Shown here in pieces: positions 8,873 to 43,282 of a DNA stretch of 64,000 nt. Positions within the stretch are counted from its first letter, which is position 1, and every line of letters begins with the position of its first letter. Under the pieces are notes generated by a model that searched no databases, was not told where the DNA came from, and saw nothing but the letters and a program-made list of their open reading frames with translations. Made by a program: the position numbers and the translations under genes. Location: assembly GCF_056746865.1 (NCBI RefSeq), contig NZ_CM163382.1; one strand, written 5' to 3'.

Positions 8873-9080
8873 AGATGATGTTCTGCGCTATTTCAAAAAA
8901 AAGCGACTAGTAGCTGAGGCTCTTGGAATTTCACATGTGGCTGTTGTGCGGTGGAAAGCAGTTATTCCCAAACTTCGCGCAATGGAACTGGATGAAATTA
9001 CTAACGGTGAATTGAAATACAACCCAGAACTTTACAAGAAGCAGGATAGCACCTCGAACGAAGGAAAGAATGATTCATGA
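8865..9080 (+). CDS. cro: Cro-like HTH regulator
   Basis: 71 aa, LVAEALGISHVAVVRWK HTH; strong RBS AGGAGAG; divergent from cI. Confidence 0.7.
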   Translation: MFKDDVLRYFKKKRLVAEALGISHVAVVRWKAVIPKLRAMELDEITNGELKYNPELYKKQDSTSNEGKNDS

Positions 9081-9502: not shown

Positions 9503-9509
9503 AAGCACG

Positions 9510-10487: not shown

Positions 10488-10493
10488 CGTGTC

Positions 10494-18159: not shown

Positions 18160-18295
18160 AGGCTTTTTTATTTGTGGTAAATGGGCGGCTGGTGGGTGTG
18201 GTGGTAGACTGGCCCCCTGAATCTCCAGACAACCAATATCACTTATTTAAGTGATAGTCTTAATACTAGTTTTTAGACTAGTCATTGGAGAACAG

Positions 18296-18661
18296 ATGAT
18301 TGATGTCTTAGGGCCGGAGAAACGCAGACGGCGTACCACACAGGAAAAGATCGCAATTGTTCAGCAGAGCTTTGAACCGGGGATGACGGTCTCCCTCGTT
18401 GCCCGGCAACATGGTGTAGCAGCCAGCCAGTTATTTCTCTGGCGTAAGCAATACCAGGAAGGAAGTCTTACTGCTGTCGCCGCCGGAGAACAGGTTGTTC
18501 CTGCCTCTGAACTTGCTGCCGCCATGAAGCAGATTAAAGAACTCCAGCGCCTGCTCGGCAAGAAAACGATGGAAAATGAACTCCTCAAAGAAGCCGTTGA
18601 ATATGGACGGGCAAAAAAGTGGATAGCGCACGCGCCCTTATTGCCCGGGGATGGGGAGTAA
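18296..18661 (+). CDS. insC: IS2 transposase OrfA (InsC)
   Basis: [40 protein letters not shown]... matches InsC. Confidence 0.9.
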
Positions 18662-19524
18662 GCTTAGTCAGCCGTTGTCTCCGGGTGTCGCGTGCGCAGT
18701 TGCACGTCATTCTCAGACGAACCGATGACTGGATGGATGGCCGCCGCAGTCGTCACACTGATGATACGGATGTGCTTCTCCGTATACACCATGTTATCGG
18801 AGAGCTGCCCACGTATGGTTATCGTCGGGTATGGGCGCTGCTTCGCAGACAGGCAGAACTTGATGGTATGCCTGCGATCAATGCCAAACGTGTTTACCGG
18901 ATCATGCGCCAGAATGCGCTGTTGCTTGAGCGAAAACCTGCTGTACCGCCATCGAAACGGGCACATACAGGCAGAGTGGCAGTGAAAGAAAGTAATCAGC
19001 GATGGTGCTCTGACGGGTTCGAGTTCCGCTGTGATAACGGAGAAAAACTGCGAGTCACGTTCGCGCAGGACTGCTGTGACCGTGAGGCACTGCACTGGGC
19101 GGTCACTACGGGCGGCTTCAACAGTGAAACAGTACAGGACGTCATGCTGGGAGCGGTGGAACGCCGCTTCGGCAACGAGCTTCCGGCGTCTCCAGTAGAG
19201 TGGCTGACGGATAATGGTTCATGCTACCGGGCTAATGAAACACGGCAGTTTGCCCGGATGTTGGGGCTTGAACCGAAGAGCACGGCGGTGCGGAGTCCGG
19301 AGAGTAACGGCATAGCAGAGAGCTTCGTGAAAACGATAAAGCGTGACTACATCAGTGTCATGCCCAAACCAGACGGGTTAACGGCAGCAAAGAACCTTGC
19401 AGAGGCGTTCGAGCATTATAACGAATGGCATCCGCATAGTGCACTGGGTTATCGCTCGCCACGGGAATATCTACGGCAGCAAGCCAGTAATGGGTTAAGT
19501 GATAACAGGTGTCTGGAAATATAG
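18619..19524 (+). CDS. insD: IS2 transposase OrfB (InsD), DDE domain
   Basis: 301-aa ORF overlapping orfA in -1 frame, typical IS3-family frameshift arrangement. Confidence 0.9.
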
Positions 19525-19879
19525 GGGCAAATCCAGGTGGTTGTTGCTTTCCCGTTGCTGAAAAAGAAAACGCCAGACTGTTAGCCGGGTATCAGTTATC
19601 TGGAGAAATTTTTAAATACCTCACAATTCAGGCGGTTGACTGTTGTCTGGTTTGCGGGGAGTTTGTTAAAAGAAACTGGCATGGTGAATCCCCCTGTGCG
19701 GAGGGGCAATCAGCAACTGGTGTTTTGTCACCGACCCTTATCCTTTCTGTGCGGGTTCAGGTGCTGATACTGAACTCACCGGGAGGCACCCGGCATCATG
19801 CAATGGCACATAGCGCCACTCTCCAGCCCCTCTCCGGAGGGGCTGTTTATATTGATTTTGTCAGATGTGAGTAAACTCC

Positions 19880-27151: not shown

Positions 27152-27163
27152 GGGCGGCGACCT
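27152..27163. other. cos: cosN cohesive-end site (GGGCGGCGACCT)
   Basis: ACGGGGCGGCGACCTCGCGCGTTTTCGCTATTTATGA matches lambda cos as recalled; about 220 bp upstream of Nu1. Confidence 0.7.
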
Positions 27164-27379: not shown

Positions 27380-27886
27380 ATGGCCTTTTTATTGAATAAA
27401 AGTGATATGGCCTCCTCCATTGGTATCTCTGTTCAGGCATTTGATAAATGGGGCGTTCCTCCTGTTGAGCGTCGGGGTAGGGAGGTTTTTTATGACGTTA
27501 AAACTGTACTGGAGATAGATCGCGAGCGGCGACAATACAATCAGAGAACACCTGATGACGGGGGCGATCTGGAGGAAAGACTGCTTCGGGCCAGAGCTGA
27601 ACTGACAGAAGAACAGGCTGTAGCTCAAAAACTTAAAAATCAGGTAACCGAAGGTAAGCTCATCGATTCAGACTTCTGCGTTTTCGCCCTCAGCAAACTG
27701 GCGATGGCATTGTCCAGTACGCTTGATTCCATTCCGTTATCCATGCAGCGACAGTTCCCGGATTTAACGCCACGTCATATTGACCATCTGAAAACCCTTA
27801 TTGCAAAGGGCGCAAATCAGTGTGCGCGGGCGGGGGATAAATTACCGGATTTACTCGATGAATATATCAGAGCAACAACTGAATAA
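27380..27886 (+). CDS. nu1: Terminase small subunit (Nu1-like)
   Basis: Alignable with lambda Nu1 (FALSKLA...LDSIPLSMQRQFPDL); start ATG 27380 with GGAGAGGAG RBS. Confidence 0.8.
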   Translation: MAFLLNKSDMASSIGISVQAFDKWGVPPVERRGREVFYDVKTVLEIDRERRQYNQRTPDDGGDLEERLLRARAELTEEQAVAQKLKNQVTEGKLIDSDFCVFALSKLAMALSSTLDSIPLSMQRQFPDLTPRHIDHLKTLIAKGANQCARAGDKLPDLLDEYIRATTE

Positions 27887-29786
27887 TATGATGAGTGCTG
27901 TCACAACAGCATTACAGCCCCTGATAAGGGCATTGCCGGTGACGCCAGTTGAATGGGCTGATCAAAATTATTATCTGCCTAAAGAATCTTCATATGGTGA
28001 GGGAGAATGGAAAACGCTGCCGTTCCAGATCGCCATCATGAACAGTATGGGGAATGATCAGATCCGCACTGTTAATCTGATTAAATCTGCCCGTGTTGGC
28101 TATACAAAGATGTTGCTGGGAGTCGCCGGGTATTTTATTGAGCATAAATCCCGAAACAGTCTGCTTTTTCAGCCCACGGATTCTGCCGCTGAAGATTTTA
28201 TGAAGTCTCACGTGGAGGCGACGATTCGGGACGTGCCATGCCTGAAAGATCTTTCCCCGTGGCTGGGTCGTAAACATCGTGACAATACTCTCACGCTGAA
28301 ACGCTTTTCATCGGGCGTGGGCTTCTGGTGCCTGGGCGGGGCTGCCGCTAAAAACTACCGTGAAAAATCCGTGGATGTGGTCTGTTATGACGAGCTTTCC
28401 TCGTTCGAACCGGATGTTGAAAAAGAGGGTTCGCCAACCCTGCTGGGGGATAAACGTATTGAGGGCTCTGTATGGCCCAAATCCATTCGCGGCTCGACGC
28501 CTAAAATCAAAGGCTCCTGCCAGATCGAAAAAGCCGCTAACGAGTCGGCACACTTCATGCGTTTTTATGTGCCCTGTCCGCACTGTGGGGAGGAGCAGTA
28601 TCTGAAATTTGGCGATGATGCCTCGCCTTTCGGTCTTAAGTGGGAGAAGAATAAGCCAGAAAGTGTTTTCTACCTTTGTGAGCATCATGGCTGTGTGATC
28701 CATCAGTCTGAGCTTGACCAGAGTAACGGGCGGTGGATCTGTGAAAACACGGGCATGTGGACCCGTGACGGCCTGACGTTTTTCAGCGCTGCGGGTAATG
28801 AAATTCCGCCGCCGCGCTCCATCACGTTCCATATCTGGACGGCGTACAGTCCGTTCACCACCTGGGTACAGATAGTCTATGACTGGCTGGATGCACTGAA
28901 AGATCCCAACGGCCTGAAAACCTTTGTGAACACCACGCTGGGCGAGACCTGGGAAGAGGCTGTGGGCGAAAAACTCGATCACCAGGTACTGATGGATAAG
29001 GTTGTGCGTTACACGGCGGCGGTGCCTGCCCGGGTGGTTTATCTGACGGCGGGCATTGACTCGCAGCGAAACCGTTTTGAGATGTATGTCTGGGGATGGG
29101 CACCGGGAGAGGAAGCTTTTCTGGTGGATAAAATCATCATTATGGGCCGTCCCGATGAGGAAGAGACGCTGTTACGTGTGGATGCGGCGATCAACAAAAA
29201 ATACTGCCATGCAGACGGAACCGAAATGACCATTTCCCGTGTCTGCTGGGACACCGGGGGGATCGATGGTGAAATTGTCTATCAGAGGTCAAAAAAACAC
29301 GGTGTTTTCCGGGTGCTGCCGGTAAAAGGCGCATCTGTCTATGGCAAGCCGGTGATCACCATGCCGAAAACCCGCAATCAGCGGGGCGTGTATCTGTGTG
29401 AAGTGGGGACGGACACCGCAAAAGAAATTCTCTATGCCCGTATGAAAGCCGAGCCCACGCCTGCGGATGAAGCCACGTCGTATGCCATCCGTTTTCCTGA
29501 TGATCCGGAGATTTTTTCGCAGACAGAGGCGCAGCAACTGGTCGCGGAAGAGCTTGTGGAGAAGTGGGAAAAAGGAAAGATGCGTCTGCTGTGGGATAAC
29601 AAAAAGCGGCGTAACGAAGCGCTGGACTGCCTGGTGTATGCCTACGCGGCATTACGTGTGTCCGTGCAACGCTGGCAGCTTGATCTGGCTGTACTGGCAA
29701 AATCCCGGGAAGAAGAGACGACCCGGCCAACCCTTAAAGAACTGGCAGCGAAGCTGTCCGGAGGAGTGAATGGTTACAGTCGCTGA
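27858..29786 (+). CDS. A: Terminase large subunit (gpA-like)
   Basis: Extensive similarity to lambda gpA (VEWADQNYYLPKESSYGEGEWKTLPFQ, Walker A-like region, CPHCGEEQYLKFGD). Confidence 0.92.
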   Translation: MNISEQQLNNMMSAVTTALQPLIRALPVTPVEWADQNYYLPKESSYGEGEWKTLPFQIAIMNSMGNDQIRTVNLIKSARVGYTKMLLGVAGYFIEHKSRNSLLFQPTDSAAEDFMKSHVEATIRDVPCLKDLSPWLGRKHRDNTLTLKRFSSGVGFWCLGGAAAKNYREKSVDVVCYDELSSFEPDVEKEGSPTLLGDKRIEGSVWPKSIRGSTPKIKGSCQIEKAANESAHFMRFYVPCPHCGEEQYLKFGDDASPFGLKWEKNKPESVFYLCEHHGCVIHQSELDQSNGRWICENTGMWTRDGLTFFSAAGNEIPPPRSITFHIWTAYSPFTTWVQIVYDWLDALKDPNGLKTFVNTTLGETWEEAVGEKLDHQVLMDKVVRYTAAVPARVVYLTAGIDSQRNRFEMYVWGWAPGEEAFLVDKIIIMGRPDEEETLLRVDAAINKKYCHADGTEMTISRVCWDTGGIDGEIVYQRSKKHGVFRVLPVKGASVYGKPVITMPKTRNQRGVYLCEVGTDTAKEILYARMKAEPTPADEATSYAIRFPDDPEIFSQTEAQQLVAEELVEKWEKGKMRLLWDNKKRRNEALDCLVYAYAALRVSVQRWQLDLAVLAKSREEETTRPTLKELAAKLSGGVNGYSR

Positions 29787-29970
29787 ACTACAGGCGCTGC
29801 GTCAGGCGCGCCTTGATTTATTAACCGGTAAACGGGTGGTGTCTGTCCAGAAAGATGGTCGCAGAATTGAATATACGGCGGCTTCTCTGGATGAGCTTAA
29901 CCGGGCGATCAATGATGCGGAGTCGGTACTGGGGACAACCCGCCGTCGTCCGCTGGGAGTGAGGTTATGA
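29770..29970 (+). CDS. W: Head-tail joining protein gpW
   Basis: 66 aa; LTGKRVVSVQKDGRRIEYTAASLDEL matches lambda W. Confidence 0.8.
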   Translation: MVTVAELQALRQARLDLLTGKRVVSVQKDGRRIEYTAASLDELNRAINDAESVLGTTRRRPLGVRL

Positions 29971-31559
29971 AACGAACGCCTGTCCTGATTGATGTGAACG
30001 GCGTTCCGCTTCGTGAGAGTCTCAGCTACAACGGGGGCGGCGCAGGATTTGGCGGGCAAATGGCTGAGTGGTTGCCACCGGCGCAGAGTGCCGATGCGGC
30101 CCTGCTGCCCGCGTTGCGTCTGGGGAATGCCCGGGCAGATGATCTGGTGCGCAATAACGGAATAGCGGCTAATGCGGTGGCTCTGCATAAGGATCACATT
30201 GTCGGGCATATGTTTCTGATCAGCTACCGTCCGAACTGGCGCTGGCTGGGGATGCGGGAGACCGCAGCAAAAAGCTTTGTCGATGAGGTGGAGGCGGCCT
30301 GGTCGGAATACGCCGAAGGGATGTTTGGCGAGATCGACGTGGAAGGAAAACGCACGTTCACGGAATTTATCCGTGAAGGTGTGGGCGTTCATGCGTTTAA
30401 CGGCGAAATCTTTGTGCAGCCGGTCTGGGATACGGAAACCACGCAGTTATTCCGTACGCGTTTTAAAGCCGTGAGTCCGAAACGGGTGGACACGCCTGGA
30501 CACGGTATGGGGAACCGTTTTCTGCGGGCCGGTGTGGAGGTCGATCGATATGGCCGTGCCGTCGCGTACCATATTTGTGAGGATGATTTTCCGTTCTCTG
30601 GTAGTGGACGATGGGAACGGATCCCGCGTGAACTTCCCACCGGGCGTCCGGCCATGCTGCATATTTTCGAGCCGGTGGAGGACGGGCAGACCCGTGGGGC
30701 TAATCAGTTTTACAGCGTCATGGAACGGCTGAAGATGCTCGATTCCCTGCAGGCAACACAGCTTCAGTCGGCCATAGTGAAGGCGATGTATGCAGCGACG
30801 ATTGAAAGTGAACTTGATACCGAAAAGGCCTTTGAATATATCGCCGGCGCGCCACAGGAGCAGAAGGATAATCCGCTTATTAATATTCTGGAGAAGTTCT
30901 CCAGCTGGTATGACACGAATAACGTGACACTGGGCGGTGTCAAAATTCCGCACCTTTTCCCTGGTGATGATCTGAAACTACAGACTGCGCAGGATTCAGA
31001 CAATGGATTTTCGGCGCTTGAACAGGCGCTGCTGCGGTATATCGCCGCCGGTCTTGGCGTTTCCTACGAACAGTTGTCCCGTGATTACTCGAAGGTCAGT
31101 TACTCAAGTGCCCGCGCCTCCGCCAATGAGTCGTGGCGCTATTTTATGGGGCGGCGAAAATTTATTGCGGCCCGGCTGGCCACGCAGATGTTTTCCTGCT
31201 GGCTGGAAGAGGCACTTCTTCGGGGGATTATTCGTCCGCCACGGGCACGTTTTGATTTTTATCAGGCGCGATCAGCCTGGTCACGGGCAGAGTGGATTGG
31301 TGCCGGAAGAATGGCCATTGACGGGCTCAAGGAAGTCCAGGAATCAGTGATGCGCATTGAGGCCGGACTGAGCACGTATGAGAAAGAGCTGGCGCTGATG
31401 GGCGAGGATTATCAGGACATTTTCCGCCAGCAGGTCAGGGAATCTGCAGAGCGGGAAAAAGCCGGACTCTCACGTCCGGTGTGGATAGCGCAGGCGTATC
31501 AGCAGCAGATAGCGGAGAGTCGCAGGCCGGAAGAGGAGACAACACCACGTGAGACGTAA
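29967..31559 (+). CDS. B: Portal protein (gpB-like)
   Basis: 530 aa at the lambda B position; ATGA overlap with W. Confidence 0.9.
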   Translation: MKRTPVLIDVNGVPLRESLSYNGGGAGFGGQMAEWLPPAQSADAALLPALRLGNARADDLVRNNGIAANAVALHKDHIVGHMFLISYRPNWRWLGMRETAAKSFVDEVEAAWSEYAEGMFGEIDVEGKRTFTEFIREGVGVHAFNGEIFVQPVWDTETTQLFRTRFKAVSPKRVDTPGHGMGNRFLRAGVEVDRYGRAVAYHICEDDFPFSGSGRWERIPRELPTGRPAMLHIFEPVEDGQTRGANQFYSVMERLKMLDSLQATQLQSAIVKAMYAATIESELDTEKAFEYIAGAPQEQKDNPLINILEKFSSWYDTNNVTLGGVKIPHLFPGDDLKLQTAQDSDNGFSALEQALLRYIAAGLGVSYEQLSRDYSKVSYSSARASANESWRYFMGRRKFIAARLATQMFSCWLEEALLRGIIRPPRARFDFYQARSAWSRAEWIGAGRMAIDGLKEVQESVMRIEAGLSTYEKELALMGEDYQDIFRQQVRESAEREKAGLSRPVWIAQAYQQQIAESRRPEEETTPRET

Positions 31560-33054
31560 TCTTTCACACATTATTGCCGCAGCATTCAATGAACCGCTGC
31601 TTCTGGAGCCCGCCTATGCGCGGGTTTTCTTTTGCGCGCTCGGGCGCGAGATGGGGGCAGCAAGTCTTTCGGTACCACAACAGCAGGTACAGCTTGATGC
31701 TCCCGGAATGCTGGCTGAAACGGACGAGTACATGGCCGGAGGTAAACGACCGGCCCGTGTTTACCGGGTGGTGAACGGTATTGCGGTACTGCCGGTGACC
31801 GGCACGCTGGTGCACCGGCTGGGGGGGATGCGGCCATTTTCCGGAATGACTGGCTATGACGGTATTGTCGCCTGTCTTCAGCAGGCAATGGCAGATAGCC
31901 AGGTGCGGGGCATACTGCTGGACATTGACAGTCCGGGCGGGCAGGCCGCCGGCGCGTTTGACTGCGCTGACATGATTTACCGCCTCCGTCAGCAGAAGCC
32001 GGTCTGGGCACTGTGCAATGACACGGCCTGTTCTGCAGCCATGCTGCTGGCGTCGGCCTGCTCCCGACGGCTGGTTACCCAGACATCCCGTATCGGCTCC
32101 ATTGGCGTGATGATGAGCCATGTCAGCTATGCCGGTCATCTGGCGCAGGCCGGTGTGGATATTACGCTGATTTATGCCGGGGCGCACAAGGTGGATGGCA
32201 ATCAGTTTGAAGCGTTGCCGGCAGAGGTTCGCCAGGATATGCAGCAGCGGATTGATGCGGCGCACCGGATGTTTGCCGAAAAAGTGGCGATGTATACCGG
32301 GTTGTCTGTGGATGCGGTCACGGGAACAGAGGCCGCCGTTTTTGAAGGTCAGTCCGGCATTGAGGCCGGGCTGGCGGATGAATTAATCAATGCGTCGGAT
32401 GCCATCAGTGTGATGGCCACGGCGCTGAACAGTAATGTCAGAGGAGGCACTATGCCGCAATTAACTGCAACGGAAGCCGCCGTGCAGGAGAACCAGCGAG
32501 TGATGGGGATCCTGACATGCCAGGAAGCGAAAGGACGTGAACAGCTTGCCACGATGCTGGCAGGGCAACAGGGCATGAGCGTTGAACAGGCCCGGGCGAT
32601 TCTGGCCGCGGCGGCACCGCAGCAGCCGGTGGCATCCGCACAGAGTGAAGCCGATCGCATTATGGCGTGTGAAGAAGCGAACGGTCGTGAACAACTGGCA
32701 GCAACGCTGGCGGCGATGCCGGAGATGACGGTGGAAAAAGCCCGCCCGATCCTGGCTGCTTCACCGCAGGCGAATGCCGGACCATCACTCCGTGATCAGA
32801 TCATGGCACTGGATGAGGCAAAAGGGGCTGAGGCGCAGGCTGAACAGCTGGCTGCCTGCCCGGGAATGACTGTGGAGAGCGCCCGGGCTGTGCTGGCTGC
32901 GGGATCAGGTAAGGCAGAACCGGTCTCTGCATCCACAACCGCCCTGTTTGAACATTTCATGGCGAACCATTCACCGGCTGCGGTCCAGGGGGGCGTGTCA
33001 CAGGCGTCAGAAGACGGTGATGCGGACGTGAAAATGCTCATGGCCATGCCATGA
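31549..33054 (+). CDS. C: Prohead protease / scaffold (gpC with nested Nu3-like C-terminal region)
   Basis: 501 aa, ClpP/S49-like N-terminal half, Ala/Gln-rich repetitive C-terminal half. Confidence 0.88.
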   Translation: MRRNLSHIIAAAFNEPLLLEPAYARVFFCALGREMGAASLSVPQQQVQLDAPGMLAETDEYMAGGKRPARVYRVVNGIAVLPVTGTLVHRLGGMRPFSGMTGYDGIVACLQQAMADSQVRGILLDIDSPGGQAAGAFDCADMIYRLRQQKPVWALCNDTACSAAMLLASACSRRLVTQTSRIGSIGVMMSHVSYAGHLAQAGVDITLIYAGAHKVDGNQFEALPAEVRQDMQQRIDAAHRMFAEKVAMYTGLSVDAVTGTEAAVFEGQSGIEAGLADELINASDAISVMATALNSNVRGGTMPQLTATEAAVQENQRVMGILTCQEAKGREQLATMLAGQQGMSVEQARAILAAAAPQQPVASAQSEADRIMACEEANGREQLAATLAAMPEMTVEKARPILAASPQANAGPSLRDQIMALDEAKGAEAQAEQLAACPGMTVESARAVLAAGSGKAEPVSASTTALFEHFMANHSPAAVQGGVSQASEDGDADVKMLMAMP

Positions 33055-33090
33055 AGTCAGTGCTGACCATCAATATGAGGTTTTAACAAA

Positions 33091-33438
33091 ATGGTGACGA
33101 AAACCATCACTGAACAGCGTGCGGAAGTACGTATTTTTGCCGGTAATGATCCGGCTCATACCGCCACAGGCAGCAGCGGGATTTCTTCTGCAACACCGGC
33201 TCTGACGCCCCTGATGCTGGATGAAGCCACCGGGAAACTGGTGGTCTGGGATGGACAGAAAGCCGGTAGTGCGGTTGGCATACTGGTACTGCCGCTTGAA
33301 GGCACAGAGACGGTGCTGACCTATTACAAGTCGGGGACCTTTGCGACGGAGGCAATCCGCTGGCCTGACAGTGTGGATGAACACAAAAAGGCAAATGCCT
33401 TTGCCGGCACAGCCCTGAGTCACGCGGCGCTGCCGTAA
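33091..33438 (+). CDS. D: Head decoration protein gpD
   Basis: 115 aa; DPAHTATG...PLMLD...VGILV...YKSGTF similar to lambda gpD. Confidence 0.85.
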   Translation: MVTKTITEQRAEVRIFAGNDPAHTATGSSGISSATPALTPLMLDEATGKLVVWDGQKAGSAVGILVLPLEGTETVLTYYKSGTFATEAIRWPDSVDEHKKANAFAGTALSHAALP

Positions 33439-33495
33439 CACGTTATCAGGCCACCATGGCGGCCTGACTGATTTCTGAATGAAAGGAACTGATTT

Positions 33496-34416
33496 ATGGG
33501 ATTGTTTACGACCCGCCAGTTACTCGGTTATACCGAACAAAAAGTGAAATTCCGTGCGCTGTTTCTGGAGCTGTTTTTCCGCCGTACGGTGAATTTCCAC
33601 ACCGAAGAGGTGATGCTGGACAAAATTACCGGAAAAACGCCGGTGGCGGCCTATGTCTCCCCAATCGTTGAAGGAAAAGTGCTTCGCCATCGCGGTGGTG
33701 AAACCCGCGTGTTACGTCCGGGCTACGTCAAGCCCAAACACGAATTTAGCACGCCGGAGGGGGAGCGGTATATCCCTTGTGTGAATATTTCCGCGGAGCC
33801 GGAGGCGTATTTTCGTATCGCACCGGAAGACTGGCTGCGGGCAGAGATGCAGGGGGAGATTGTGGCACTGGTCCACAGTCATCCCGGTGGGCTGCCCTGG
33901 CTGAGCGAGGCTGACCGGCGGCTGCAGATAAAAAGCGCACTGCCCTGGTGGCTGGTCTGCCGGGGTGACATTCACAAATTCCGCTGTGTGCCACATCTGA
34001 CGGGACGGCGCTTTGAGCACGGGGTGACGGACTGTTACACGCTGTTCCGGGATGCTTATCATCTGGCGGGGACTGAAATGCCGGATTTTCATCGCGAGGA
34101 TGACTGGTGGCGCAACGGCCAGAACCTGTACCTGGACAACCTGGCGGAAAACGGCTTTTGCCGGGTGTCTCCGTCCTCTGCACAGGCAGGCGATGTGCTG
34201 CTGTGCTGCTTTGGATCATCGGTGCCGAATCATGCCGCCGTTTACTGTGGTGACGGCGAGCTGCTGCACCATATTCCTGAACAACTGAGTAAACGGGAGA
34301 GGTATTCCGAAAAATGGCAACGACGAACGCATTCAGTCTGGCGTCACCGCCACTGGCACGCATCCGCCTTTACGGGGATTTACAACGATTTGGCCGCCGC
34401 CTCAGCCTGTATGTGA
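33496..34416 (+). pseudogene. In-frame chimera: N-terminal ~84 aa of major capsid protein E fused to C-terminal ~220 aa of tail protein K
   Basis: Residues 1-84 align with lambda gpE N-terminus (QLL...FRRTVNF...YVSPIV...PGYVKPKHE); remainder aligns with lambda gpK (STPEGERY.PCVNIS.EPEAYFR, HSHPGG JAMM motif); junction near 33745. Confidence 0.8.
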
Positions 34417-34994
34417 ACACGGCAGCGGAAGCCATTCGCGCCCTGTCGATGCAGATGCCGGGCTTTCGCCGTCAGATGAACGAAGGCTGGTACCAGATAC
34501 GTATTGCCGGTGATGACACGGCACCGGAGGCGGTGTACGCCCGTCTTCACGAACAGCTGGGTGAGGGAACGGTCATCCATATTGTGCCGCGACTGGCCGG
34601 GGCCGGAAAGGGTGGACTGCAGATTGTGCTGGGGGCGGCAGCCATCGTGGGCTCTTTCTTCACTGCCGGTGCCTCGATGGCGTTATGGGGTACAGCCCTG
34701 AGTGCCGGCGGTTTTTCTGCCACCACGATGCTGTTTTCACTGGGGGCCAGCATGATACTGGGCGGTGTGGCCCAGATGCTGGCCCCGAAGGCAAAAACAC
34801 CGGATTACCGCGCAACGGATAACGGCAGACAGAACACGTACTTTTCCTCGCTGGATAACATGATTGCCCAGGGGAACCCGATGCCGGTGCCTTACGGGGA
34901 AATGCTGGTTGGCTCCCGCCGTATATCCCAGGACATCAGCACCCGTGATGAAGGCGGGGGCGGAAAGGTCGTGGTTATCGGGCGGCAGGGGTAA
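34314..34994 (+). CDS. I: Tail assembly protein I
   Basis: 226 aa; RLYGDLQRFGRR...QNTYFSSLDNM...GEMLVGSRRISQ similar to lambda gpI; overlaps K end as in lambda. Confidence 0.85.
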   Translation: MATTNAFSLASPPLARIRLYGDLQRFGRRLSLYVNTAAEAIRALSMQMPGFRRQMNEGWYQIRIAGDDTAPEAVYARLHEQLGEGTVIHIVPRLAGAGKGGLQIVLGAAAIVGSFFTAGASMALWGTALSAGGFSATTMLFSLGASMILGGVAQMLAPKAKTPDYRATDNGRQNTYFSSLDNMIAQGNPMPVPYGEMLVGSRRISQDISTRDEGGGGKVVVIGRQG

Positions 34995-35244: not shown

Positions 35245-38200
35245 GTGGGTAAAGGTGGCGGTAAGGCGCACACACCGCGCGAGGCGAAGGATAATCTCAA
35301 ATCCACGCAGATGATGAGTGTGATTGATGCGATTGGTGAGGGACCGATAGAAGGTCCGGTGAAGGGACTGCAGAGTATCCTGGTGAACAAAACCCCGCTG
35401 ACGGACACGGACGGTAATCCCGTGATACACGGTGTGACCGCGGTCTGGCGTGCCGGGGAGCAGGAGCAGACACCACCGGAAGGCTTTGAGTCCTCCGGAG
35501 CTGAAACCGGACTGGGCGTGGAAGTGACGAAGGCAAAACCGGTGACGCGCACCATTACGTCCGCGAACATTGACCGCCTGCGGGTTACCTTCGGGGTGCA
35601 GTCACTGGTGCAGACCACGTCAAAGGGTGACCGTAACCCGACATCCGTCCGCCTGCTGATTCAGTTACAGCGTAACGGTAACTGGGTGACAGAAAAGGAC
35701 GTCACCATTAACGGCAAGACCACCTCACAGTTCCTGGCCTCGGTGATTCTGGATAATCTGCCTCCCCGGCCCTTTAACATCCGGATGGTCAGGGAGACGG
35801 CGGACAGCACCACGGACCAGCTGCAGAATAAGACGCTGTGGTCGTCATACACCGAAATCATCGATGTGAAACAGTGCTACCCGAACACGGCCATTGTGGG
35901 GCTGCAGGTGGATGCGGAGCAGTTCGGCGGCCAGCAGATGACGGTGAACTACCATATCCGCGGTCGCATCATCCAGGTGCCGTCAAACTATGACCCGGAA
36001 AAACGCACGTACAGTGGTATCTGGGACGGCAGCCTGAAACCGGCATACAGCAACAACCCGGCCTGGTGTCTGTGGGACATGCTGACTCACCCGCGCTACG
36101 GCATGGGAAAACGTCTGGGGGCGGCGGATGTGGACAAGTGGGCGCTGTATGCCATCGGGCAGTACTGCGACCAGACGGTCCCGGATGGTTTCGGGGGGAC
36201 CGAGCCGCGGATGACCTTTAATGCGTACCTGGCACAACAGCGTAAGGCGTGGGACGTTCTCAGTGATTTCTGCTCTGCGATGCGCTGTATGCCGGTATGG
36301 AACGGCCAGACGCTGACGTTCGTTCAGGACCGTCCGTCGGATGTGGTGTGGCCGTACACCAACAGCGATGTGGTGGTGGATGATAACGGCGTGGGTTTCC
36401 GCTACAGCTTCAGTGCCCTGAAGGACCGGCACACGGCAGTGGAGGTGAATTACACCGACCCGCAGAACGGCTGGCAGACCTCCACGGAACTGGTGGAAGA
36501 CCCGGAAGCCATACTGCGCTACGGACGCAACCTGCTGAAGATGGACGCGTTCGGCTGTACCAGCCGCGGTCAGGCCCACCGTGCCGGGCTGTGGGTGATA
36601 AAGACCGAACTGCTGGAAACGCAGACGGTGGATTTCACGCTCGGGTCACAGGGGCTGCGTCACACACCCGGTGACATCATTGAAATCTGTGATAACGACT
36701 ATGCCGGGACCATGACCGGCGGACGTGTCCTGTCCATCGATGCCGCCAGCCGTACCCTGACGCTGGACCGGGAGGTGACACTGCCGGAGACCGGCACGGC
36801 CACTGTTAATCTGATTAACGGCAGCGGTAAGCCGGCGAGCGTGGCCATCACCGCACACCCCGCGCCTGACCGGATACAGGTCAGCACCCTGCCGGATGGT
36901 GTGGAGACATACGGTGTGTGGGGACTCTCCCTGCCGTCACTGCGTCGTCGCCTGTTCTGCTGTGTCTCCATCCGGGAAAACACGGACGGCACGTTCGCCA
37001 TCACGGCGGTGCAGCACGTACCGGAAAAAGAAGCCATTGTGGATAACGGGGCCAGCTTTGAGCCGCAGTCAGGCAGCCTGAACAGCGTTATCCCACCGGC
37101 AGTGCAGCACCTGACGGTGGAGGTGAGTGCAGCTGACGGTCAGTATCTGGCACAGGCGAAATGGGACACGCCGCGGGTGGTGAAGGGTGTGCGCTTCAGT
37201 CTGCGTCTGACCAGCGGAAGCGGAGAAGACAGCCGTCTGGTGAGCACCGCCATCACCGCAGACACGGAGCACCGTTTCAGTGGTCTGCCGCTGGGGGAAT
37301 ACACCCTGACGGTGCGGGCCATTAACAGCTACGGCCAGCAGGGCGAACCTGCGACCACCACCTTCCGGATTAACGCGCCTGCAAAACCCGCCACCATTGA
37401 GCTGACGCCGGGGTATTTTCAGATAACGGCGGTCCCGCGTCTTGCGGTGTATGACCCGACGGTACAGTTTGAATTCTGGTTCTCAGAAAAACGCATCACG
37501 AACACGGCACAGGTGGAAAAATCTGCCCGTTATCTGGGGACCGGCAGTCAGTGGACTGTCCAGGGGAGCCGGATTAAGCCGGGGACGGATTTCTGGTTTT
37601 ACGTGCGAAGCGTCAACCTGGTGGGAAAATCTGCTTTTGTGGAAGCCAGCGGGCAGCCCAGCAATGATGGTGAAGGGTATCTGGAAATTTTCCGGGGGCT
37701 GATAGATGAGACGCTTCTGGGCCAGGCACTGAAAGAGCGCATTGATGCTTCAGCGCTGCGTACGGAGGTCACGCAACTGGAAGAAGACATCCGTCAGCGG
37801 ATGGACACGGATATCGCAGAAGTGACCCGGAAAATCGGGGAGGCGGAAAACAGCCTCACGCAGCTGGTTGCGAAAAAGAATGAGGACCAGACACTGGCCA
37901 TCGCGCAGGTGAGCCAGAAAGTGGACCGGGTGAGCAGTGAAATCTCACAGACTGTCAGCCAGGGGCAGTCAGAAAATGCCCGACAGATAGCACAGGTCCG
38001 CCAGTACGTGGATAAAAAAGGGAGTGAAATTACCTCGACCACGGATAAAAAACTGGGTGACCAGGCCGTGACCATACAGCAAATCCAGCGGGTTCAGTCA
38101 GACACGCGCAATGAGCTGAATGCCATGTATATGCTGAAGGTGCAGAAAACAAAAAACGGTATTCCCTATGTGGCCGGGATTGGTGCGGGGATTGAGGATG

Positions 38201-38937
38201 TTGATGGTCAGACGCTGAGCAGTATTCTGCTGCAGGCTGACCGTATCGCGATGATTACCCCGGAGAACGGCAACACCACGCCGCTGTTTGTGGCGCAGGG
38301 GAATCAGCTGTTCATGAACGACGTGTTCCTGAAGCGACTGTTTGCGGTGAGCATCACGTCATCCGGCAATCCTCCGACGTTTTCCCTGACGCCGGATGGC
38401 AGGCTGACAGCCCGCAATGCGGATATCAGTGGAGCCATCACGGCGAATACCGGCACGCTCAATAATGTCACCATTAACGAGAACTGTGTCATCAGAGGGA
38501 AACTGTCTGCAAACCAGATTGAAGGCGATCTCGTTAAAACAGTGGGTAAGGCTTTCCCTCGTGACTCCCGTGCACCGAAGCGGTGGCCATCAGGAACCAT
38601 TACCGTCAGGGTTTATGACGATCAGCCGTTTAACCGGCAGATTGTTATTCCGGCGGTGGCTTTCAGCGGTGCCAGACATGAGCGGGAGAACAGCGATACT
38701 TATTCGTCATGCCGCCTGATAGTGAAGAAAAACGGTGCTGAAATTTATAACCGTACCGCGCTGGATAATACGCTGATTTACAGTGGTGTTATTGATATGC
38801 CAGCTGGTCGCGGCCACATGACGCTGGAGTTTTCTGTATCAGCATGGTGGGTAAATGGCTGGTATCCCACAGCAAGTATCAGCGATTTGCTGGTTGTTGT
38901 GATGAAGAAAGCCACTGCAGGCATCACGATTAGCTGA
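35245..38937 (+). CDS. J: Host-specificity / central tail fibre protein J
   Basis: About 1230 aa, GTG start ([21 protein letters not shown] as lambda J); collinear with lambda J with an extra coiled-coil-like segment. Confidence 0.92.
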
Positions 38938-38957
38938 ATTTTATAACCCCAATACGG

Positions 38958-38985
38958 GCGCCAGAAATGGTGCCTTTTTTATTGC
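38958..38985 (+). terminator. Candidate intrinsic terminator between J and lom
   Basis: GGCGCC-agaaat-GGTGCC hairpin followed by TTTTTT. Confidence 0.5.
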
Positions 38986-39004
38986 AGAAAAGCGAGAGGT
39001 AATT

Positions 39005-39604
39005 ATGCGTAAAGTTTGTGCAGCCATTTTGTCCGCAGCCATCTGTCTGTCCGTATCCGGTGCGCCTGCATGGGCGTCTGAACATCAGTCCACACTGAGC
39101 GCAGGGTATCTTCATGCCCGTACGAACGCTCCCGGCAGCGATAATCTGAACGGGATTAACGTGAAATACCGTTATGAGTTTACGGACGCGCTGGGGCTGA
39201 TTACGTCCTTCAGTTATGCCAATGCTGAGGATGAGCAAAAAACGCACTACAGCGATACCCGCTGGCATGAAGATTCCGTGCGTAACCGCTGGTTCAGCGT
39301 GATGGCGGGGCCGTCTGTACGCGTGAATGAATGGTTCAGCGCGTATGCGATGGCGGGTGTGGCTTACAGCCGTGTGTCGACTTTCTCCGGGGATTATCTC
39401 CGCGTAACTGACAACAAGGGGAAAAAGCACGATGTGCTGACCGGAAGTGATGACGGTCGCCACAGCAACACGTCTCTGGCGTGGGGAGCTGGCGTGCAGT
39501 TTAACCCGACCGAATCCGTGGCCATTGATGTCGCTTATGAAGGCTCCGGCAGCGGTGACTGGCGTACCAACAGTTTCATCGTTGGTGTCGGTTATAAGTT
39601 CTGA
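39005..39604 (+). CDS. lom: Outer-membrane protein Lom (Ail/Lom family)
   Basis: 199 aa, signal peptide, beta-barrel pattern ending GVGYKF. Confidence 0.9.
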   Translation: MRKVCAAILSAAICLSVSGAPAWASEHQSTLSAGYLHARTNAPGSDNLNGINVKYRYEFTDALGLITSFSYANAEDEQKTHYSDTRWHEDSVRNRWFSVMAGPSVRVNEWFSAYAMAGVAYSRVSTFSGDYLRVTDNKGKKHDVLTGSDDGRHSNTSLAWGAGVQFNPTESVAIDVAYEGSGSGDWRTNSFIVGVGYKF

Positions 39605-39630
39605 TTAGCCAGGTAACACAGTGTTATGAC

Positions 39631-39657
39631 AGCCCGCCGGTTCAGGCGGGCTTTTTT
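39631..39657 (+). terminator. Intrinsic terminator after lom
   Basis: GCCCGCC-ggttca-GGCGGGC plus TTTTTT. Confidence 0.7.
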
Positions 39658-39662
39658 GTGGA

Positions 39663-42600
39663 GTGGATATGGCAGCAGTAAAAATCTCAGGTGTGCTGAA
39701 AGATGGCACAGGAAAACCAGTACAGAACTGCACCATTGTGCTGAAGGCCAGACGAACCAGCAGCACGGTGGTGGTGAACACGGTGGCCTCTGAAAATCCG
39801 GATGAAGCCGGACGTTACAGCATGGATGTTGAGCATGGCCAGTACAGCGTCACCCTGCTGGTTGAAGGTTTTCCGCCTTCACATGCCGGGACCATTACCG
39901 TCTATGAAGGTTCCAGACCAGGTACGCTGAATGATTTTCTCGGTGCCATGACGGAGGATGATGTCCGACCGGAGGCACTGCGCCGCTTTGAGCAGATGGT
40001 GGAAGAGGTGTCACGTAACGCCTCCGCGGTTGCACAGAATACGGCAGCCGCGAAAAAATCAGCCAGCGATACCAGTGCATCAGCCAGCGAGGCGGCAACT
40101 CATGCAACCGATGCTGCAGCCTCAGCACGTGCCGCCAGCACGTCAGCCGGACAGGCCGCGTCGTCGGCTCAGTCAGCGTCTTCCAGCGCAGGAACGGCAT
40201 CGACAAAGGCCCGTGAAGCAGCAAAAAGTGCTGCTGCTGCAGAGTCATCAAAAAGCGCGGCAGCTACCAGCGCCAGTGCCGCGAAAACGTCAGAAACGAA
40301 TGCCGCAGCATCACAAAAATCGGCAGCCACTTCTGCATCCACAGCGACCACGAAGGCGTCAGAAGCTGCCACCTCGGCACGGGGTGCGGCGGCCTCAAAA
40401 GAGGCAGCGAAATCTTCAGAAACGAATGCATCATCAAGTGCCAGTAGTGCAGCTTCCTCGGCAACGGCGGCAGGAAATTCCGCGAAGGCGGCAAAAACGT
40501 CCGAGACGAACGCTAAGTCTTCTGAAACAGCAGCGGGACAGAGCGCCTCAGCTGCGGCAGGTTCAAAAACAGCGGCTGTATTATCTGCCAGTGCCGCGTC
40601 AACAAGTGCCGGGCAGGCCTCAGCCAGTGCCACCGCCGCCGGAAAATCGGCAGAAAGCGCCGCATCATCCGCTTCAACAGCCACAACGAAGGCTGGCAAA
40701 GCCACTGAGCAAGCCACTGCAGCAGCGAGGTCTGCTTCTGCAGCAAAAACCTCTGAAACAAATGCAAAGACTTCAGCAGACAATGCTGCTTCCTCTAAGG
40801 CGGCAGCCGCATCGTCAGCCAGTTCAGCGGCGTCATCGGCATCATCTGCGTCTGCTTCAAAAGATGAGGCGACCAGACAAGCGTCAGCAGCGAAAGGTAG
40901 TGCCACGACAGCAACAACGAAAGCATCAGAGGCGGCAGGCAGTGCGACGGCTGCATCTCAGAGCAAAGTTGCTGCTGAATCCGCGGCAACGCGCGCCGAG
41001 ACAGCAGCAAAACGGGCAGAGGATATTGCATCCGCCGTGGCGCTGGAGGATGCGAGCACGACGAAAAAGGGGATAGTACAGCTCAGCAGTGCAACAAACA
41101 GCACCAGTGAAAAGCTGGCGGCAACGCCAAAGGCAGTTAAAACTGTTAAAGATAGTTCAGTTCAAAAAACTGGCGACACAATGGGAGGGCAGTTAAAAAT
41201 CAGCACGATAAATGCTCTTCGAATATTCAACCAAGCCTTTGGCCTTATTTTTAGGCGTTCCGAAGATCATCTTCATCTTATTCCGACTAATGAAGGGGAG
41301 GGGGAAAATGGAGACATCGGTTCATTAAGACCATTCTCTATAAACTTAAGATCAGGGTTGGTGTCCATCGGTAATGGACTAAAAGTTGGTGGTAGTGTTA
41401 CTGGTAATTTGACCGGAAACGCAGATACTGCGACCAAGATCAAGACAGCACGTAAGATTGGGGGCGTGGCATTTGATGGATCGGCAGATATCAACTTGCC
41501 TGGAGTCAACGCTACCGGTAATCAAAACACTACAGGTAATGCTGCGACCGCCACGAAACTTCAGGCAGCCAGAACGATTAACGGTGTGTCATTTGATGGT
41601 AGTGCAAATATCACATTGACCCCTTCAAATATTGGGGCATTGGCATTAACTGGAGGGACTCTTTCAGGTGGTTTAACTGCTGCTGGTGAGGTTATTTCAA
41701 GGTCAGCAAATGGTCTGCGTATTGCCTATGGCAACTATGGATTCTTTATCCGAAATGATGGATCAAACACATATTTTATGTTGACAGATTCGGGTAACAG
41801 TCTTGGTACGCACAATAGCTTAAGGCCGTTTATAATTAGTAACCATACTGGCAATGTTACAATTGCAACTAAATTAAACGCGAGTGGTGGTATCACTGGA
41901 TCTTTATCGGGTAATGCAAGCACAGCAACCAAATTGCAAACTGCAAGGACAATTAACGGCGTAAAATTTGACGGCTCGGCAAATATTGAAGCGTTTCCGC
42001 CAGGTGTTCCGCTGCCGTGGCCATCAGATACACCACCTGCAGGTTATGCAATCATGCAGGGGCAGACGTTTGATAAGGCAGCATATCCGAAACTGGCTAT
42101 TGCCTATCCTTCAGGTGTTATTCCAGATATGCGCGGCTGGACAATCAAGGGCAAACCCGCCAGTGGCCGGGCCGTATTGTCTCAGGAACAGGACGGCATT
42201 AAATCGCACACCCACAGCGCCAGCGCATCCAGTACGGATTTGGGGACGAAAACCACATCGTCGTTTGATTACGGCACTAAATCCACGAATAACACCGGGG
42301 CGCATACGCACAGTCTGAGTGGCTCTACGGGGTCTGCCGGTGTTCATACTCATGGTAATGGTATTCGTTGGCCAGGAGGCGGCGGTTCTGCGTTAGCATT
42401 TTATGATGGCGGTGGGTTCACTTATGTCCAGAATTCACAGTATCAAGTAAGCCCGGAGACTTCTTCCTATAGATCGTATTATCAACGTATTCAGACACAG
42501 TCAGCAGGTGCTCATACCCACTCGCTGTCTGGTACTGCAGCAAGTTCTGGCGCACATGCACATACTGTAGGTATTGGTGCGCATACGCACTCCGTTGCGA

Positions 42601-42698
42601 TTGGTTCACATGGACACACCATCACCGTTAACGCTGCGGGTAACGCGGAAAACACCGTCAAAAACATCGCATTTAACTATATTGTGAGGCTTGCATAA
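39663..42698 (+). CDS. stf: Side tail fibre protein Stf
   Basis: 1011 aa; N-terminus [23 protein letters not shown] and C-terminus ...[18 protein letters not shown] as lambda Stf; long Ala/Ser-rich repeats. Confidence 0.9.
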
Positions 42699-43282
42699 TG
42701 GCATTCAGAATGAGTGAACAACCACGGACCATAAAAATTTATAATCTGTTGTCCGGAACTAATGAATTTATTGGTGAAGGTGATGCATATATTCCGCCTC
42801 ATACAGGTCTGCCAGCAAACAGTACCGATATTGCACCGCCAGATATTCCGGCTGGCTTCGTGGCTGTTTTCAATAGTGATGAGTCATCGTGGCATCTCGT
42901 TGAAGACCATCGGGGTAAAACGGTTTATGACGTAGCGTCAGGGGACGAGTTATTTATTTCTGAACTCGGTCCGTTACCGGAAAATGTTACCTGGTTATCG
43001 CCGGAAGGGGAGTTTCAGAAGTGGAACGGCACAGCCTGGGTGAAGGATACGGAAGCAGAAAAACTGTTCCGGATCCGGGAGGCGGAAGAAACAAAAAACA
43101 ACCTGATGCAGGTAGCCAGTGAGCATATTGCGCCGCTTCAGGATGCTGCAGATCTGGAAATTGCAACGGAGGAAGAAACCTCATTGCTGGAAGCCTGGAA
43201 AAAGTATCGGGTGTTGCTGAACCGTGTTGATACATCAACTGCACCTGATATTGAGTGGCCTACGAACCCTGTCAGGGAGTAA
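42698..43282 (+). CDS. tfa: Tail fibre assembly protein Tfa
   Basis: 194 aa, [18 protein letters not shown]... as lambda Tfa. Confidence 0.9.

What the first reader, a model, noticed from the sequence alone, without database searches (positions are those of the whole stretch)
33496..34416. In-frame capsid E'-'tail K chimera marks a large deletion; prophage is assembly-defective
One continuous 306-codon ORF has an N-terminal ~84 aa that aligns with the lambda major capsid protein E and a remainder that aligns with the C-terminal two-thirds of tail protein K (JAMM HSHPGG motif and NlpC/P60-like region). All genes expected between D and I (most of E, FI, FII, Z, U, V, G, T, H, M, L and the K N-terminus) are absent. 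The prophage therefore cannot make capsids or tail tubes, yet retains intact int/xis, immunity, replication, lysis and terminase genes. The fusion could still give a JAMM/NlpC-domain protein with a capsid-derived N-terminus.
Basis: partly seen in the sequence, partly recalled or inferred. Interest (0 to 1): 0.65.

Follow-up and report, generated by a model that had tools for sequence, protein, structure and literature searches.

The report
Prophage deletion scar fusing capsid-tail genes
A lambda-like prophage in this E. coli chromosome has lost 7.8 kb of head and tail genes in one recent deletion that happens to join the start of the capsid gene in frame to most of tail gene K; this is ordinary prophage decay, not a new system.

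Summary
ORF 33496-34416 (306 aa) is residues 1-84 of the lambda-type major capsid protein E joined in frame to residues 26-247 of tail-assembly protein K.

Three complete E. coli genomes (CFSAN061770, EC31, EF5-18-41) carry the same prophage at the same potB/potC site. They are about 100% identical on both sides, and all lose collinearity at window base 33748. They hold an extra 7,835 bp encoding the rest of E, then FI, FII, Z, U, V, G, T, H, M, L and the start of K. None of these genes is elsewhere in the window.

The junction shares a single base, so the cause is illegitimate recombination, not repeat-mediated deletion. The window prophage has no private SNPs, so the event is recent.

The junction and the chimeric protein were found in no public collection searched. 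Similar chimeras (W'-'K, V'-'K, H'-'K, D'-'T) exist in other E. coli prophages.

The chimera keeps a whole NlpC/P60 domain. Its JAB domain lacks helix 1, most of strand 1 and the invariant catalytic-motif Glu19, so the metalloprotease half is probably dead. The prophage cannot build virions alone, but it keeps cos, terminase, portal, the tail-tip genes and the regulatory genes. Low interest.

The parts
33496..34416 (+). Chimeric ORF E(1-84)::K(26-247), 306 aa. It uses the E start codon and the Shine-Dalgarno-like sequence (AAAGGAA) upstream of it.
33496..33747 (+). E' part: codons 1-84 of the major capsid gene. From general knowledge of the HK97 fold this is the N-arm and part of the E-loop region, not the fold core.
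   Evidence: 100% identical to L001 21997-22248; Phage_cap_E model positions 1-81 of 329; aligned to lambda gpE of PDB entry 7vi9
33748..33748 (+). Deletion junction: a single base 'A' shared by both parental sides (E codon 85 AAT, K codon 26 AGC). 7,835 bp are missing here.
   Evidence: the same breakpoint appears against L005, L006 and L007
33748..34416 (+). 'K part: codons 26-247 of tail assembly protein K. The JAB domain is truncated (HSHPGG...S..D retained, Glu19 lost); the NlpC/P60 domain is complete.
34413..34994 (+). Tail assembly protein I. In the sister-genome annotation its GTG start overlaps the chimera's TGA stop (GTGA), so the K-I gene overlap is unchanged.
33091..33438 (+). Head decoration protein D, intact, immediately upstream of the chimera.
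27152..27163 (+). Exact lambda cosN 12-mer GGGCGGCGACCT, 217 nt upstream of the Nu1 start.
27380..33054 (+). Retained packaging and head genes: Nu1, A, W, portal B and protease/scaffold C.
35245..43282 (+). Retained tail-tip and fibre genes: J, lom, stf and tfa.
   Evidence: 100% identical to the annotated L001
1875..44592 (.). The whole prophage between 14-bp att cores (CACCTTCTTATTCA at 1875-1888 and 44579-44592), in the potB 3' end / potC start. It is 42.7 kb now and 50.5 kb before the deletion.
2033..3389 (-). Integrase and excisionase.
8099..11240 (.). LexA-family repressor (-), then Cro, a YdaT-family gene, the O-like initiator and the DnaC-like loader (+).
17183..17737 (+). Q-like antiterminator (DUF1133), intact.
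18203..19536 (+). IS2-like (IS3 family) insertion downstream of Q and upstream of the late genes. It is shared with the undeleted relatives.

Best explanation
This is a deletion scar. One illegitimate-recombination event inside the late operon of a lambda-like prophage, integrated at potB/potC, removed 7,835 bp. The lost stretch runs from codon 85 of capsid gene E to codon 25 of tail gene K.

Shown:
- The two ends shared only one base.
- The ends happen to be in the same codon phase, so a 306-codon ORF results.
- The event is recent. The window prophage has no other private difference from intact copies in three sister genomes.

Inferred consequences:
- On induction the element could still excise, replicate, lyse the cell and cut cos.
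- It cannot make capsid shells, tail tubes or tail tips on its own, so it depends on a co-resident lambdoid phage for any transfer.
- The chimera would be made only from the late transcript, translated from the E ribosome-binding site.
- It is most likely a functionless by-product. Its capsid-derived part is not a folding unit, and its JAB metalloprotease domain lacks helix 1, most of strand 1 and the catalytic-motif glutamate. Only the NlpC/P60 domain is whole.
For: Deletion and its boundaries:
- The window is collinear with L001 (CFSAN061770) over 11500-33748 with 1 mismatch in 22,249 bp, and over 33748-45912 with 0 mismatches in 12,165 bp. Between these blocks 7,835 bp of L001 are absent.
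- The same breakpoint is seen against EC31, EF5-18-41 and B2.3.
- The absent segment is annotated E, FI, FII, Z, U, V, G, T, H, M, L, K.
- Deletion, not insertion: E and K are intact single genes in phage lambda and in the relatives.

Recency and mechanism:
- The only SNP against CFSAN061770 (window 29719) is private to CFSAN061770; the window carries the common allele.
- Microhomology at the junction is 1 bp.

Loss of function:
- The missing genes are nowhere else in the window.
- The JAB match starts at model position 34 of 114.
- K residues 1-25 hold 10 invariant positions among 23 homologs of 67-95% identity, including P17, E19, S20, C21, G22.
- E19 aligns with the Glu of the PNEACG motif in the 2kks chain that matches K's JAB region.
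- The AlphaFold model of K places helix 3-15 and strand 20-27 in the lost part, at pLDDT about 90.

Precedent:
- Comparable chimeras and deletions occur in other E. coli prophages.
- Defective lambdoid prophages are known to be complemented by co-resident ones (PMC2669165).
Against: - There are no reads or a second assembly, so an assembly or consensus error cannot be formally excluded.
- The junction was found in no other public sequence. The event rests on this one window.
- Nothing here measures expression or activity of the chimera.
- The NlpC/P60 domain, the HxH...S..D part of the JAB motif and the overlap with gene I are all preserved. Residual or new activity is therefore not excluded.
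Confidence: 0.88

Rival explanations
1. Assembly or consensus artefact. The source strain has the intact 50.5-kb prophage, and the 7.8-kb gap was introduced when the genome was assembled.
For: The junction occurs in no other public sequence: 0 of 5,426 complete E. coli genomes span it, and the 30-mer is absent from the viral, genome and metagenome collections. The exact protein is not among about 15 billion sequences. Clear assembly-type artefacts, K proteins with internal duplications, do exist in public data.
Against: Assembly collapses happen at repeats. Here the two ends share 1 bp and no similarity. Both flanks belong to the same prophage at 100% identity. The window is a long contiguous stretch that correctly crosses an IS element and differs from the relatives in other genuine ways: no IS4, and no prophage at icd. 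Absence of the protein from NCBI sets is expected, because in the complete genome examined here the split D'/'T genes are annotated as pseudogenes without a protein record.
Confidence: 0.07
2. Helper-dependent mobile element. The deletion derivative persists because it can still be excised, replicated and packaged through its own cos, terminase and portal into capsids and tails supplied by a co-resident lambdoid prophage. It would then act like a satellite.
For: An exact cosN, Nu1, A, W, B, C and D, together with I, J, stf and tfa, int/xis, the repressor and the replication genes, are all retained. At 42.7 kb the element lies inside lambda's packaging range, about 38-51 kb from general knowledge. 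E. coli genomes that match this region hold a median of 3 and up to 18 matching places, so helpers are common. Defective O157 prophages are packaged and transferred through inter-prophage complementation (PMC2669165).
Against: This describes what the element might still be able to do; it is not evidence that the deletion was selected. The deletion is seen once and is very recent. No helper lies in the window. Compatibility of the capsid and tail proteins with a helper is untested.
Confidence: 0.25
3. Functional chimera. The in-frame E'-'K protein has been kept for an activity. It could be an NlpC/P60 peptidase with a new N-terminus, or a dominant-negative capsid fragment that interferes with assembly of related phages.
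For: The frame is preserved and the NlpC/P60 domain is complete, with the conserved Cys and His retained. The E translation start and the overlap with gene I are intact. Several other X'-'K chimeras exist in public data.
Against: An in-frame junction has a 1-in-3 chance. There is a single occurrence and no time for selection to act, since there are no private SNPs. No E'-'K protein appears among the best 120 listed of 1,160 matches in the 5.8-billion-cluster search, where one would have ranked at the top. The JAB domain is truncated. The other chimeras have different partners and breakpoints and were ascertained by searching with K, so they point to recurrent decay, not convergence.
Confidence: 0.04

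Closest known systems
Defective lambdoid prophages of E. coli with deletions in morphogenesis genes (for example the Sp prophage pool of O157:H7 Sakai; PMC2669165)
   Same: It is a lambda-like prophage that keeps regulation, replication, terminase and lysis genes but has lost part of the head/tail module. Any transfer would need complementation by co-resident lambdoid prophages.
   Different: This deletion (E codon 85 to K codon 25, 7,835 bp) and its in-frame product were found in no sequence collection searched. Nearly isogenic undeleted copies exist, so the event can be dated as very recent.
Other deletion chimeras and deletions in E. coli prophage late operons: W'-'K (P0064/L008), V'-'K (P0039/L009), H'-'K (P0044) and D'-'T (Z1323CEC0018, L004)
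   Same: An internal late-operon deletion joins two unrelated structural genes. In the three K chimeras the ORF ends with the K NlpC/P60 domain, and where the context was read (L008, L009) it is followed by gene I.
   Different: The 5' partners and breakpoints differ (K residues about 39, 42 and 58, against 26 here). They are independent events in different prophages.
Phage lambda tail assembly protein K (JAB + NlpC/P60; TAPK of Iyer et al. 2006, PMC1779556)
   Same: Residues 85-306 are K residues 26-247, 87% identical to lambda gpK. They are followed by the ubiquitin-like gene I, as in all lambdoid tail clusters.
   Different: It lacks the conserved N-terminal 25 residues, including the motif Glu, and carries 84 capsid-derived residues instead. 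The tail-tip partners L, M and H are absent from the element.
Phage lambda major capsid protein gpE (HK97 fold; PDB 7vi9)
   Same: Residues 1-84 are homologous to gpE 1-84. They are identical to the sister prophage's E and about 53% identical to lambda gpE.
   Different: Only one quarter of the protein is present. The P and A domains that make up the HK97 fold are gone.

Membership tests
Lambda-type major capsid protein E (Pfam Phage_cap_E, HK97 fold) | A full-length match to the roughly 330-residue family model, covering the N-arm, E-loop, P domain and A domain. | tested here: not met
   Only model positions 1-81 of 329 are matched. The intact E of the sister prophage is 342 aa and aligns end to end with lambda gpE 7vi9.
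JAB/JAMM (MPN+) metalloprotease domain | The complete motif: an upstream Glu plus HxH-x7-S-xx-D on an intact fold. | tested here: not met
   HSHPGGLPWLSEAD is present. The Pfam Prok-JAB match starts at model position 34 of 114. Invariant Glu19 (PAESCG) is deleted, as are helix 3-15 and most of strand 20-27.
NlpC/P60 (C40) peptidase domain | A complete domain with the conserved catalytic Cys and His. | tested here: met
   NLPC_P60 model positions 1-105 of 105 match residues 170-283. Invariant D120-C121 and H187 (K numbering) are retained. Catalytic activity was not tested.
Lambda tail assembly protein K (functional member) | A full-length K of about 245-250 aa with a conserved N-terminus, encoded between L and I in a complete tail-tip cluster. 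| tested here: not met
   K residues 1-25, with 10 invariant positions, are missing. L, M, H, T, G and V are absent from the window. Gene I still follows.
Inducible lambdoid prophage (regulatory and replicative competence) | Int/Xis, a cleavable LexA-type repressor and Cro, replication initiator and loader, a Q antiterminator, a lysis cassette, cos and terminase. | tested here: met
   All are present as full-length ORFs, named by the annotation of the 100%-identical sister sequence; a subset and cosN were checked directly. Function was not tested. An IS2-like element lies between Q and the late genes.
Virion-producing (plaque-forming) lambdoid phage | A complete set of head genes (E, FI, FII) and tail genes (Z, U, V, G, T, H, M, L, K). 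| tested here: not met
   tblastn with all 12 proteins finds only the E 1-84 and K 26-247 fragments.
Phage satellite (PICI/P4-like, helper-exploiting element) | Dedicated genes for hijacking a helper (capsid-size redirection, helper-sensing derepression) and a conserved, recurrent architecture. | tested here: not met
   The gene content is that of the parental lambdoid prophage minus 7.8 kb. The architecture is unique to this window.

The most novel reading that the evidence does not exclude
The E'-'K chimera, or the deleted prophage as a whole, is biologically active and not mere debris. The protein would be translated from the E translation start, presumably efficiently since E is the major capsid gene, whenever a compatible Q protein switches on the late operon. 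That Q could come from this prophage or from a superinfecting relative. The capsid N-arm fragment could then poison capsid assembly of related phages, or the fusion could deliver an NlpC/P60 peptidase activity. Meanwhile the 42.7-kb element could ride in helper capsids through its intact cos, terminase and portal genes.
Probability: 0.04. Interest if true: 0.5.

Novelty: new member of a known kind. Interest (0 to 1): 0.12.

Why it matters
The main value is a clean, datable example of how prophages decay. One microhomology-independent deletion turned a probably complete 50.5-kb lambdoid prophage into a 42.7-kb element that cannot build particles. Nearly isogenic undeleted copies are available as controls.

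This is useful for annotation: the ORF should be marked as two pseudogene fragments, and the prophage as defective. It could also serve as a natural test case for helper-dependent packaging. It does not reveal a new gene family or mechanism.

Tried and rejected
- Searched for the same junction or protein elsewhere. The exact-sequence look-up in about 15 billion proteins was negative. The homology search in 5.8 billion clusters listed no protein combining E and K among its best 120, where such a protein would have ranked. The two top hits with self-like scores turned out to be K proteins with internal duplications. The junction 30-mer is absent from the viral, genome and metagenome contig collections. 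No complete E. coli genome spans the junction.
- Considered repeat-mediated deletion or repeat collapse. Rejected: the ends share only 1 bp.
- Considered recombination between two different prophages. Rejected: both flanks match one and the same prophage at 100% in three genomes.
- Considered insertion in the relatives instead of deletion here. Rejected: E and K are single intact genes in lambda and in all homologs.
- Considered that the window might be CFSAN061770 itself with an edit. Rejected: the window lacks that strain's IS4 and its icd prophage, and carries the common allele at 29719.
- Considered a deletion hotspot at the 5' end of K, because four other chimeras break at K residues about 39-58. 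Not pursued: the hits were ranked by how much of K they retain, so the pattern is an ascertainment effect.
- Did not model the chimera itself. Only K homologs were in hand, so the E-derived part would have had no alignment depth, and low confidence there could not be told from disorder.

Full report
**1. The observation**

The window contains an ATG-initiated ORF at 33496..34416 on the + strand, 306 codons long.

- Pfam finds three pieces. Phage_cap_E covers residues 5-85 but uses only model positions 1-81 of 329. Prok-JAB covers residues 90-164 and starts at model position 34 of 114. NLPC_P60 covers residues 170-283 and is a complete match.
- PHROGs gives the same split: major head protein on residues 1-91 and minor tail protein on residues 85-306.
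- Against phage lambda itself, the N-terminal part is 53% identical to gpE over residues 1-94 (E 2e-28). Residues 108-304 are 87% identical to the annotated gpK (E 1e-135).

**2. What lies around it**

The ORF sits in the late operon of a lambda-like prophage.

- The prophage is bounded by a 14-bp direct repeat, CACCTTCTTATTCA, at 1875-1888 and 44579-44592. In E. coli K-12 this sequence occurs once, at the potB 3' end / potC start. The prophage is 42.7 kb long.
- The flanking chromosome is E. coli: potD and potC on the left; potB, potA, pepT, roxA, phoQP, purB, hflD, mnmA and icd on the right.

**3. The undeleted parent exists**

Megablast against 5,426 complete E. coli genomes found no genome that spans the junction. 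Three genomes do carry the same prophage at the same site, about 100% identical on both sides: CFSAN061770, EC31 and EF5-18-41.

Base-by-base comparison with CFSAN061770 (locus L001) gives:

| Window | L001 | Result |
|---|---|---|
| 11500-33748 | 1-22249 | 1 mismatch in 22,249 bp |
| 33748-45912 | 30085-42249 | 0 mismatches in 12,165 bp |
| (absent) | 22250-30084 | 7,835 bp missing from the window |

- EC31, EF5-18-41 and the more distant B2.3 prophage all lose collinearity at the same window base.
- In every one of them the extra segment is annotated as major capsid protein, FI, FII, Z-, U- and V-type tail proteins, G, T, tape measure, M-type tail protein, L and the C40 peptidase K.
- tblastn of these 12 proteins against the whole window returns only E residues 1-~84 and K residues 25-247. 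The missing genes have not moved elsewhere in the window.

**4. Anatomy of the junction**

- The left parental sequence reads ...CACGAATTTA|ATTACC.
- The right parental sequence reads ...CGTGATA|AGCACG.
- The window reads ...CACGAATTT-A-GCACG.

Only the single A is shared. It is the first base of E codon 85 (AAT) and of K codon 26 (AGC). The two genes are therefore joined in the same phase, and the product is E(1-84)+K(26-247) = 306 aa.

With 1 bp of microhomology and no flanking repeat, the event is illegitimate (homology-independent) recombination. It is not slippage between repeats or repeat collapse. An in-frame outcome has a prior chance of one in three and needs no special explanation.

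**5. Polarity and age**

E and K are single intact genes in lambda and in every homolog examined. The window therefore lost DNA; the relatives did not gain it.

The single SNP against CFSAN061770 (window 29719, K621T in terminase A) is private to CFSAN061770. EC31, EF5-18-41 and B2.3 share the window's base. Apart from the deletion, the window prophage has no private substitution over about 34 kb, so the deletion is very recent.

The window is nevertheless a different strain from CFSAN061770:

- It lacks an IS4 that interrupts the CFSAN061770 prophage.
- It lacks a second prophage at icd. The only eight flank mismatches cluster at the icd 3' end.

**6. What is retained**

On the 100%-identical sister sequence the genome annotation names the following as intact: integrase, excisionase, exonuclease, DicB, a LexA-family repressor, Cro, a YdaT-family protein, a helix-turn-helix (O-like) protein, a DnaC-like ATPase, RusA, a DUF1133 protein, holin, lysozyme, a lysis protein, small and large terminase, W, portal, S49 protease, D, I, J, Lom, and the tail fibre with its assembly protein.

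- PHROGs confirms the repressor, the O-like initiator, the DnaC-like loader, a Q-like antiterminator (the DUF1133 protein), Nu1, the protease/scaffold, D and I.
- An exact lambda cosN 12-mer lies 217 nt upstream of Nu1.

The element is not pristine. An IS2-like element (18203-19536) lies between the Q-like gene and the late genes, and several small early genes and ydfR are pseudogenes. All of these defects are shared with the undeleted relatives, and B2.3 lacks the IS.

**7. The chimeric protein**

*E part.* In the HK97 fold the chain runs N-arm, E-loop, P domain, A domain, and the first two elements protrude from the fold core (PMC5701804). That 84 of 342 residues cover only the N-arm and E-loop region is my inference; I did not map it residue by residue.

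*K part: the JAB domain is truncated.*

- Among 23 K homologs of 67-95% identity, residues 1-25 contain 10 invariant positions: I8, L9, H11, A12, P17, E19, S20, C21, G22 and V24.
- The PAESCG segment aligns with PNEACG of PDB chain 2kks, deposited as an uncharacterized protein, which matches K residues 7-108, the JAB region. This is the upstream Glu of the JAMM motif (E...HxH-x7-S-xx-D, established knowledge).
- An AlphaFold model of full-length K (mean pLDDT 75, about 90 over the first 40 residues) places helix 3-15 and strand 20-27 in this region.
- The chimera therefore loses helix 1, most of strand 1 and the motif Glu. Its metalloprotease half is most probably inactive and perhaps misfolded.

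*K part: the NlpC/P60 domain is complete*, with its invariant Cys and His.

*Link to gene I.* The chimera's stop codon still overlaps the start of gene I (GTGA), as in the parent.

*Background on K.* Lambda gpK is required for tail assembly but was not detected by mass spectrometry of the virion or resolved in cryo-EM structures (PMC10721106; PMC12617516). It has been proposed to process the ubiquitin-like protein I (PMC1779556). In an element lacking L, M, H, V and the other tail genes, that role has no object.

**8. Is it unique, and is the kind known?**

The exact protein is not among about 15 billion public sequences. No protein combining E and K appears among the best 120 listed of 1,160 matches in the 5.8-billion-cluster search, where it would have ranked at the top. 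The junction 30-mer is absent from the viral, species-representative genome and metagenome collections.

The kind of event is common, however:

- Z1323CEC0018 has a D'-'T deletion in a related prophage.
- Public assemblies hold W'-'K (P0064, locus L008), V'-'K (P0039, locus L009), H'-'K (P0044) and Bro-N-'K (P0048) chimeras. Where the context was read (L008, L009) they are followed by gene I, with J or a J fragment further on.
- Their breakpoints in K (residues about 39-58) differ from this one (residue 26). The apparent clustering at the 5' end of K is an ascertainment effect of ranking hits by K coverage.
- Deleted and IS-disrupted morphogenesis modules, and their complementation by co-resident lambdoid prophages, are well documented for E. 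coli O157 (PMC2669165).

**9. Explanation and rivals**

*Best explanation (confidence about 0.88).* A recent, real, homology-independent 7.8-kb deletion made the prophage unable to assemble virions. The in-frame chimera is a by-product.

*Rivals.*

- Assembly artefact (about 0.07). The junction is seen only here, but artefacts arise at repeats and none is present.
- Helper-dependent element (about 0.25 as a capability, not exclusive of the main explanation). cos, terminase, portal, D and the tail-tip and fibre genes are retained. The 42.7-kb size lies within lambda's packaging range (general knowledge). E. coli genomes that match this region hold a median of three matching places.
- Selected, functional chimera (about 0.04).

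**10. Verdict**

The refinements are:

- the exact junction (33747/33748), the deleted length (7,835 bp) and the 1-bp microhomology;
- the existence of nearly isogenic intact parents;
- the truncated and probably dead JAB domain;
- the pre-existing IS2-like insertion and pseudogenes.

This is a new instance of a well-known process, prophage decay by deletion, and is of low general interest.

Noticed in passing
window 18203-19536: A 1.33-kb IS2-like (IS3 family) element lies about 0.45 kb downstream of the Q-like antiterminator gene (17183-17737), just after a terminator-like hairpin (18147-18162). It is in the leader of the late operon. It is shared with CFSAN061770, EC31 and EF5-18-41 and absent from the related B2.3 prophage. 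It could attenuate late transcription even in the 'intact' relatives.
   Followed up: partly
window 1875-1888 and 44579-44592: The prophage is integrated in the potB 3' end / potC start (att core CACCTTCTTATTCA). It splits the potABCD operon into potAB and potCD, 42.7 kb apart, and changes the PotB C-terminus (287 aa here, 275 aa in K-12).
   Followed up: partly
L011 (phage lambda NC_001416) 8431-8580, i.e. lambda 14130-14279: The reference lambda record annotates K as 199 aa starting at MSPEDWL. Relative to the prophage K genes it has a 1-nt gap (GAGGC-TATTTCC). This puts the conserved JAB N-terminus (MTQTESAILAHARRCAPAESCGFVVSTPEGERYFPCVNISGEPEA) in another reading frame. It is either an error in the reference sequence or a frameshift in laboratory lambda.
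   Followed up: partly
L008 1923-2663; L009 6001-7113; L004 6092-6537; proteins P0044, P0048: There are independent late-operon deletions in other E. coli prophages: W'-'K in an effector-carrying prophage that also has a truncated terminase A, V'-'K, H'-'K, Bro-N-'K, and a D'-'T junction in strain Z1323CEC0018.
   Followed up: partly
proteins P0001-P0005: Public K proteins of 277-347 aa carry internal tandem duplications of 30-110 residues. They are probably assembly artefacts from multi-copy lambdoid prophages. They outscore genuine K proteins in HMMER searches.
   Followed up: no
window 34995-35244: A 250-bp AT-rich spacer lies between I and J. It has a strong promoter-like site on the minus strand (35132-35105, 11 of 12 matches) and a terminator-like hairpin on the plus strand (35170-35193). 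In relatives (L004, L008) a sodC moron occupies this position, so this may be a moron remnant or an empty moron site.
   Followed up: no
window 5928-5939 and 57236-57376: Compared with its closest complete relative, CFSAN061770, the window lacks an IS4 insertion between the exonuclease gene and a DUF1482 gene (a 12-bp overlap marks the target site). It also lacks a second lambdoid prophage at the icd 3' end. All eight chromosomal mismatches cluster in the last about 125 bp of icd.
   Followed up: partly
window 43337-44005 (-) and about 44150-44330: The right end of the prophage carries a class I SAM-dependent methyltransferase gene on the opposite strand and a partial second tail-fibre-assembly gene. 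The latter is about 90% identical to part of tfa at 43117-43260.
   Followed up: no
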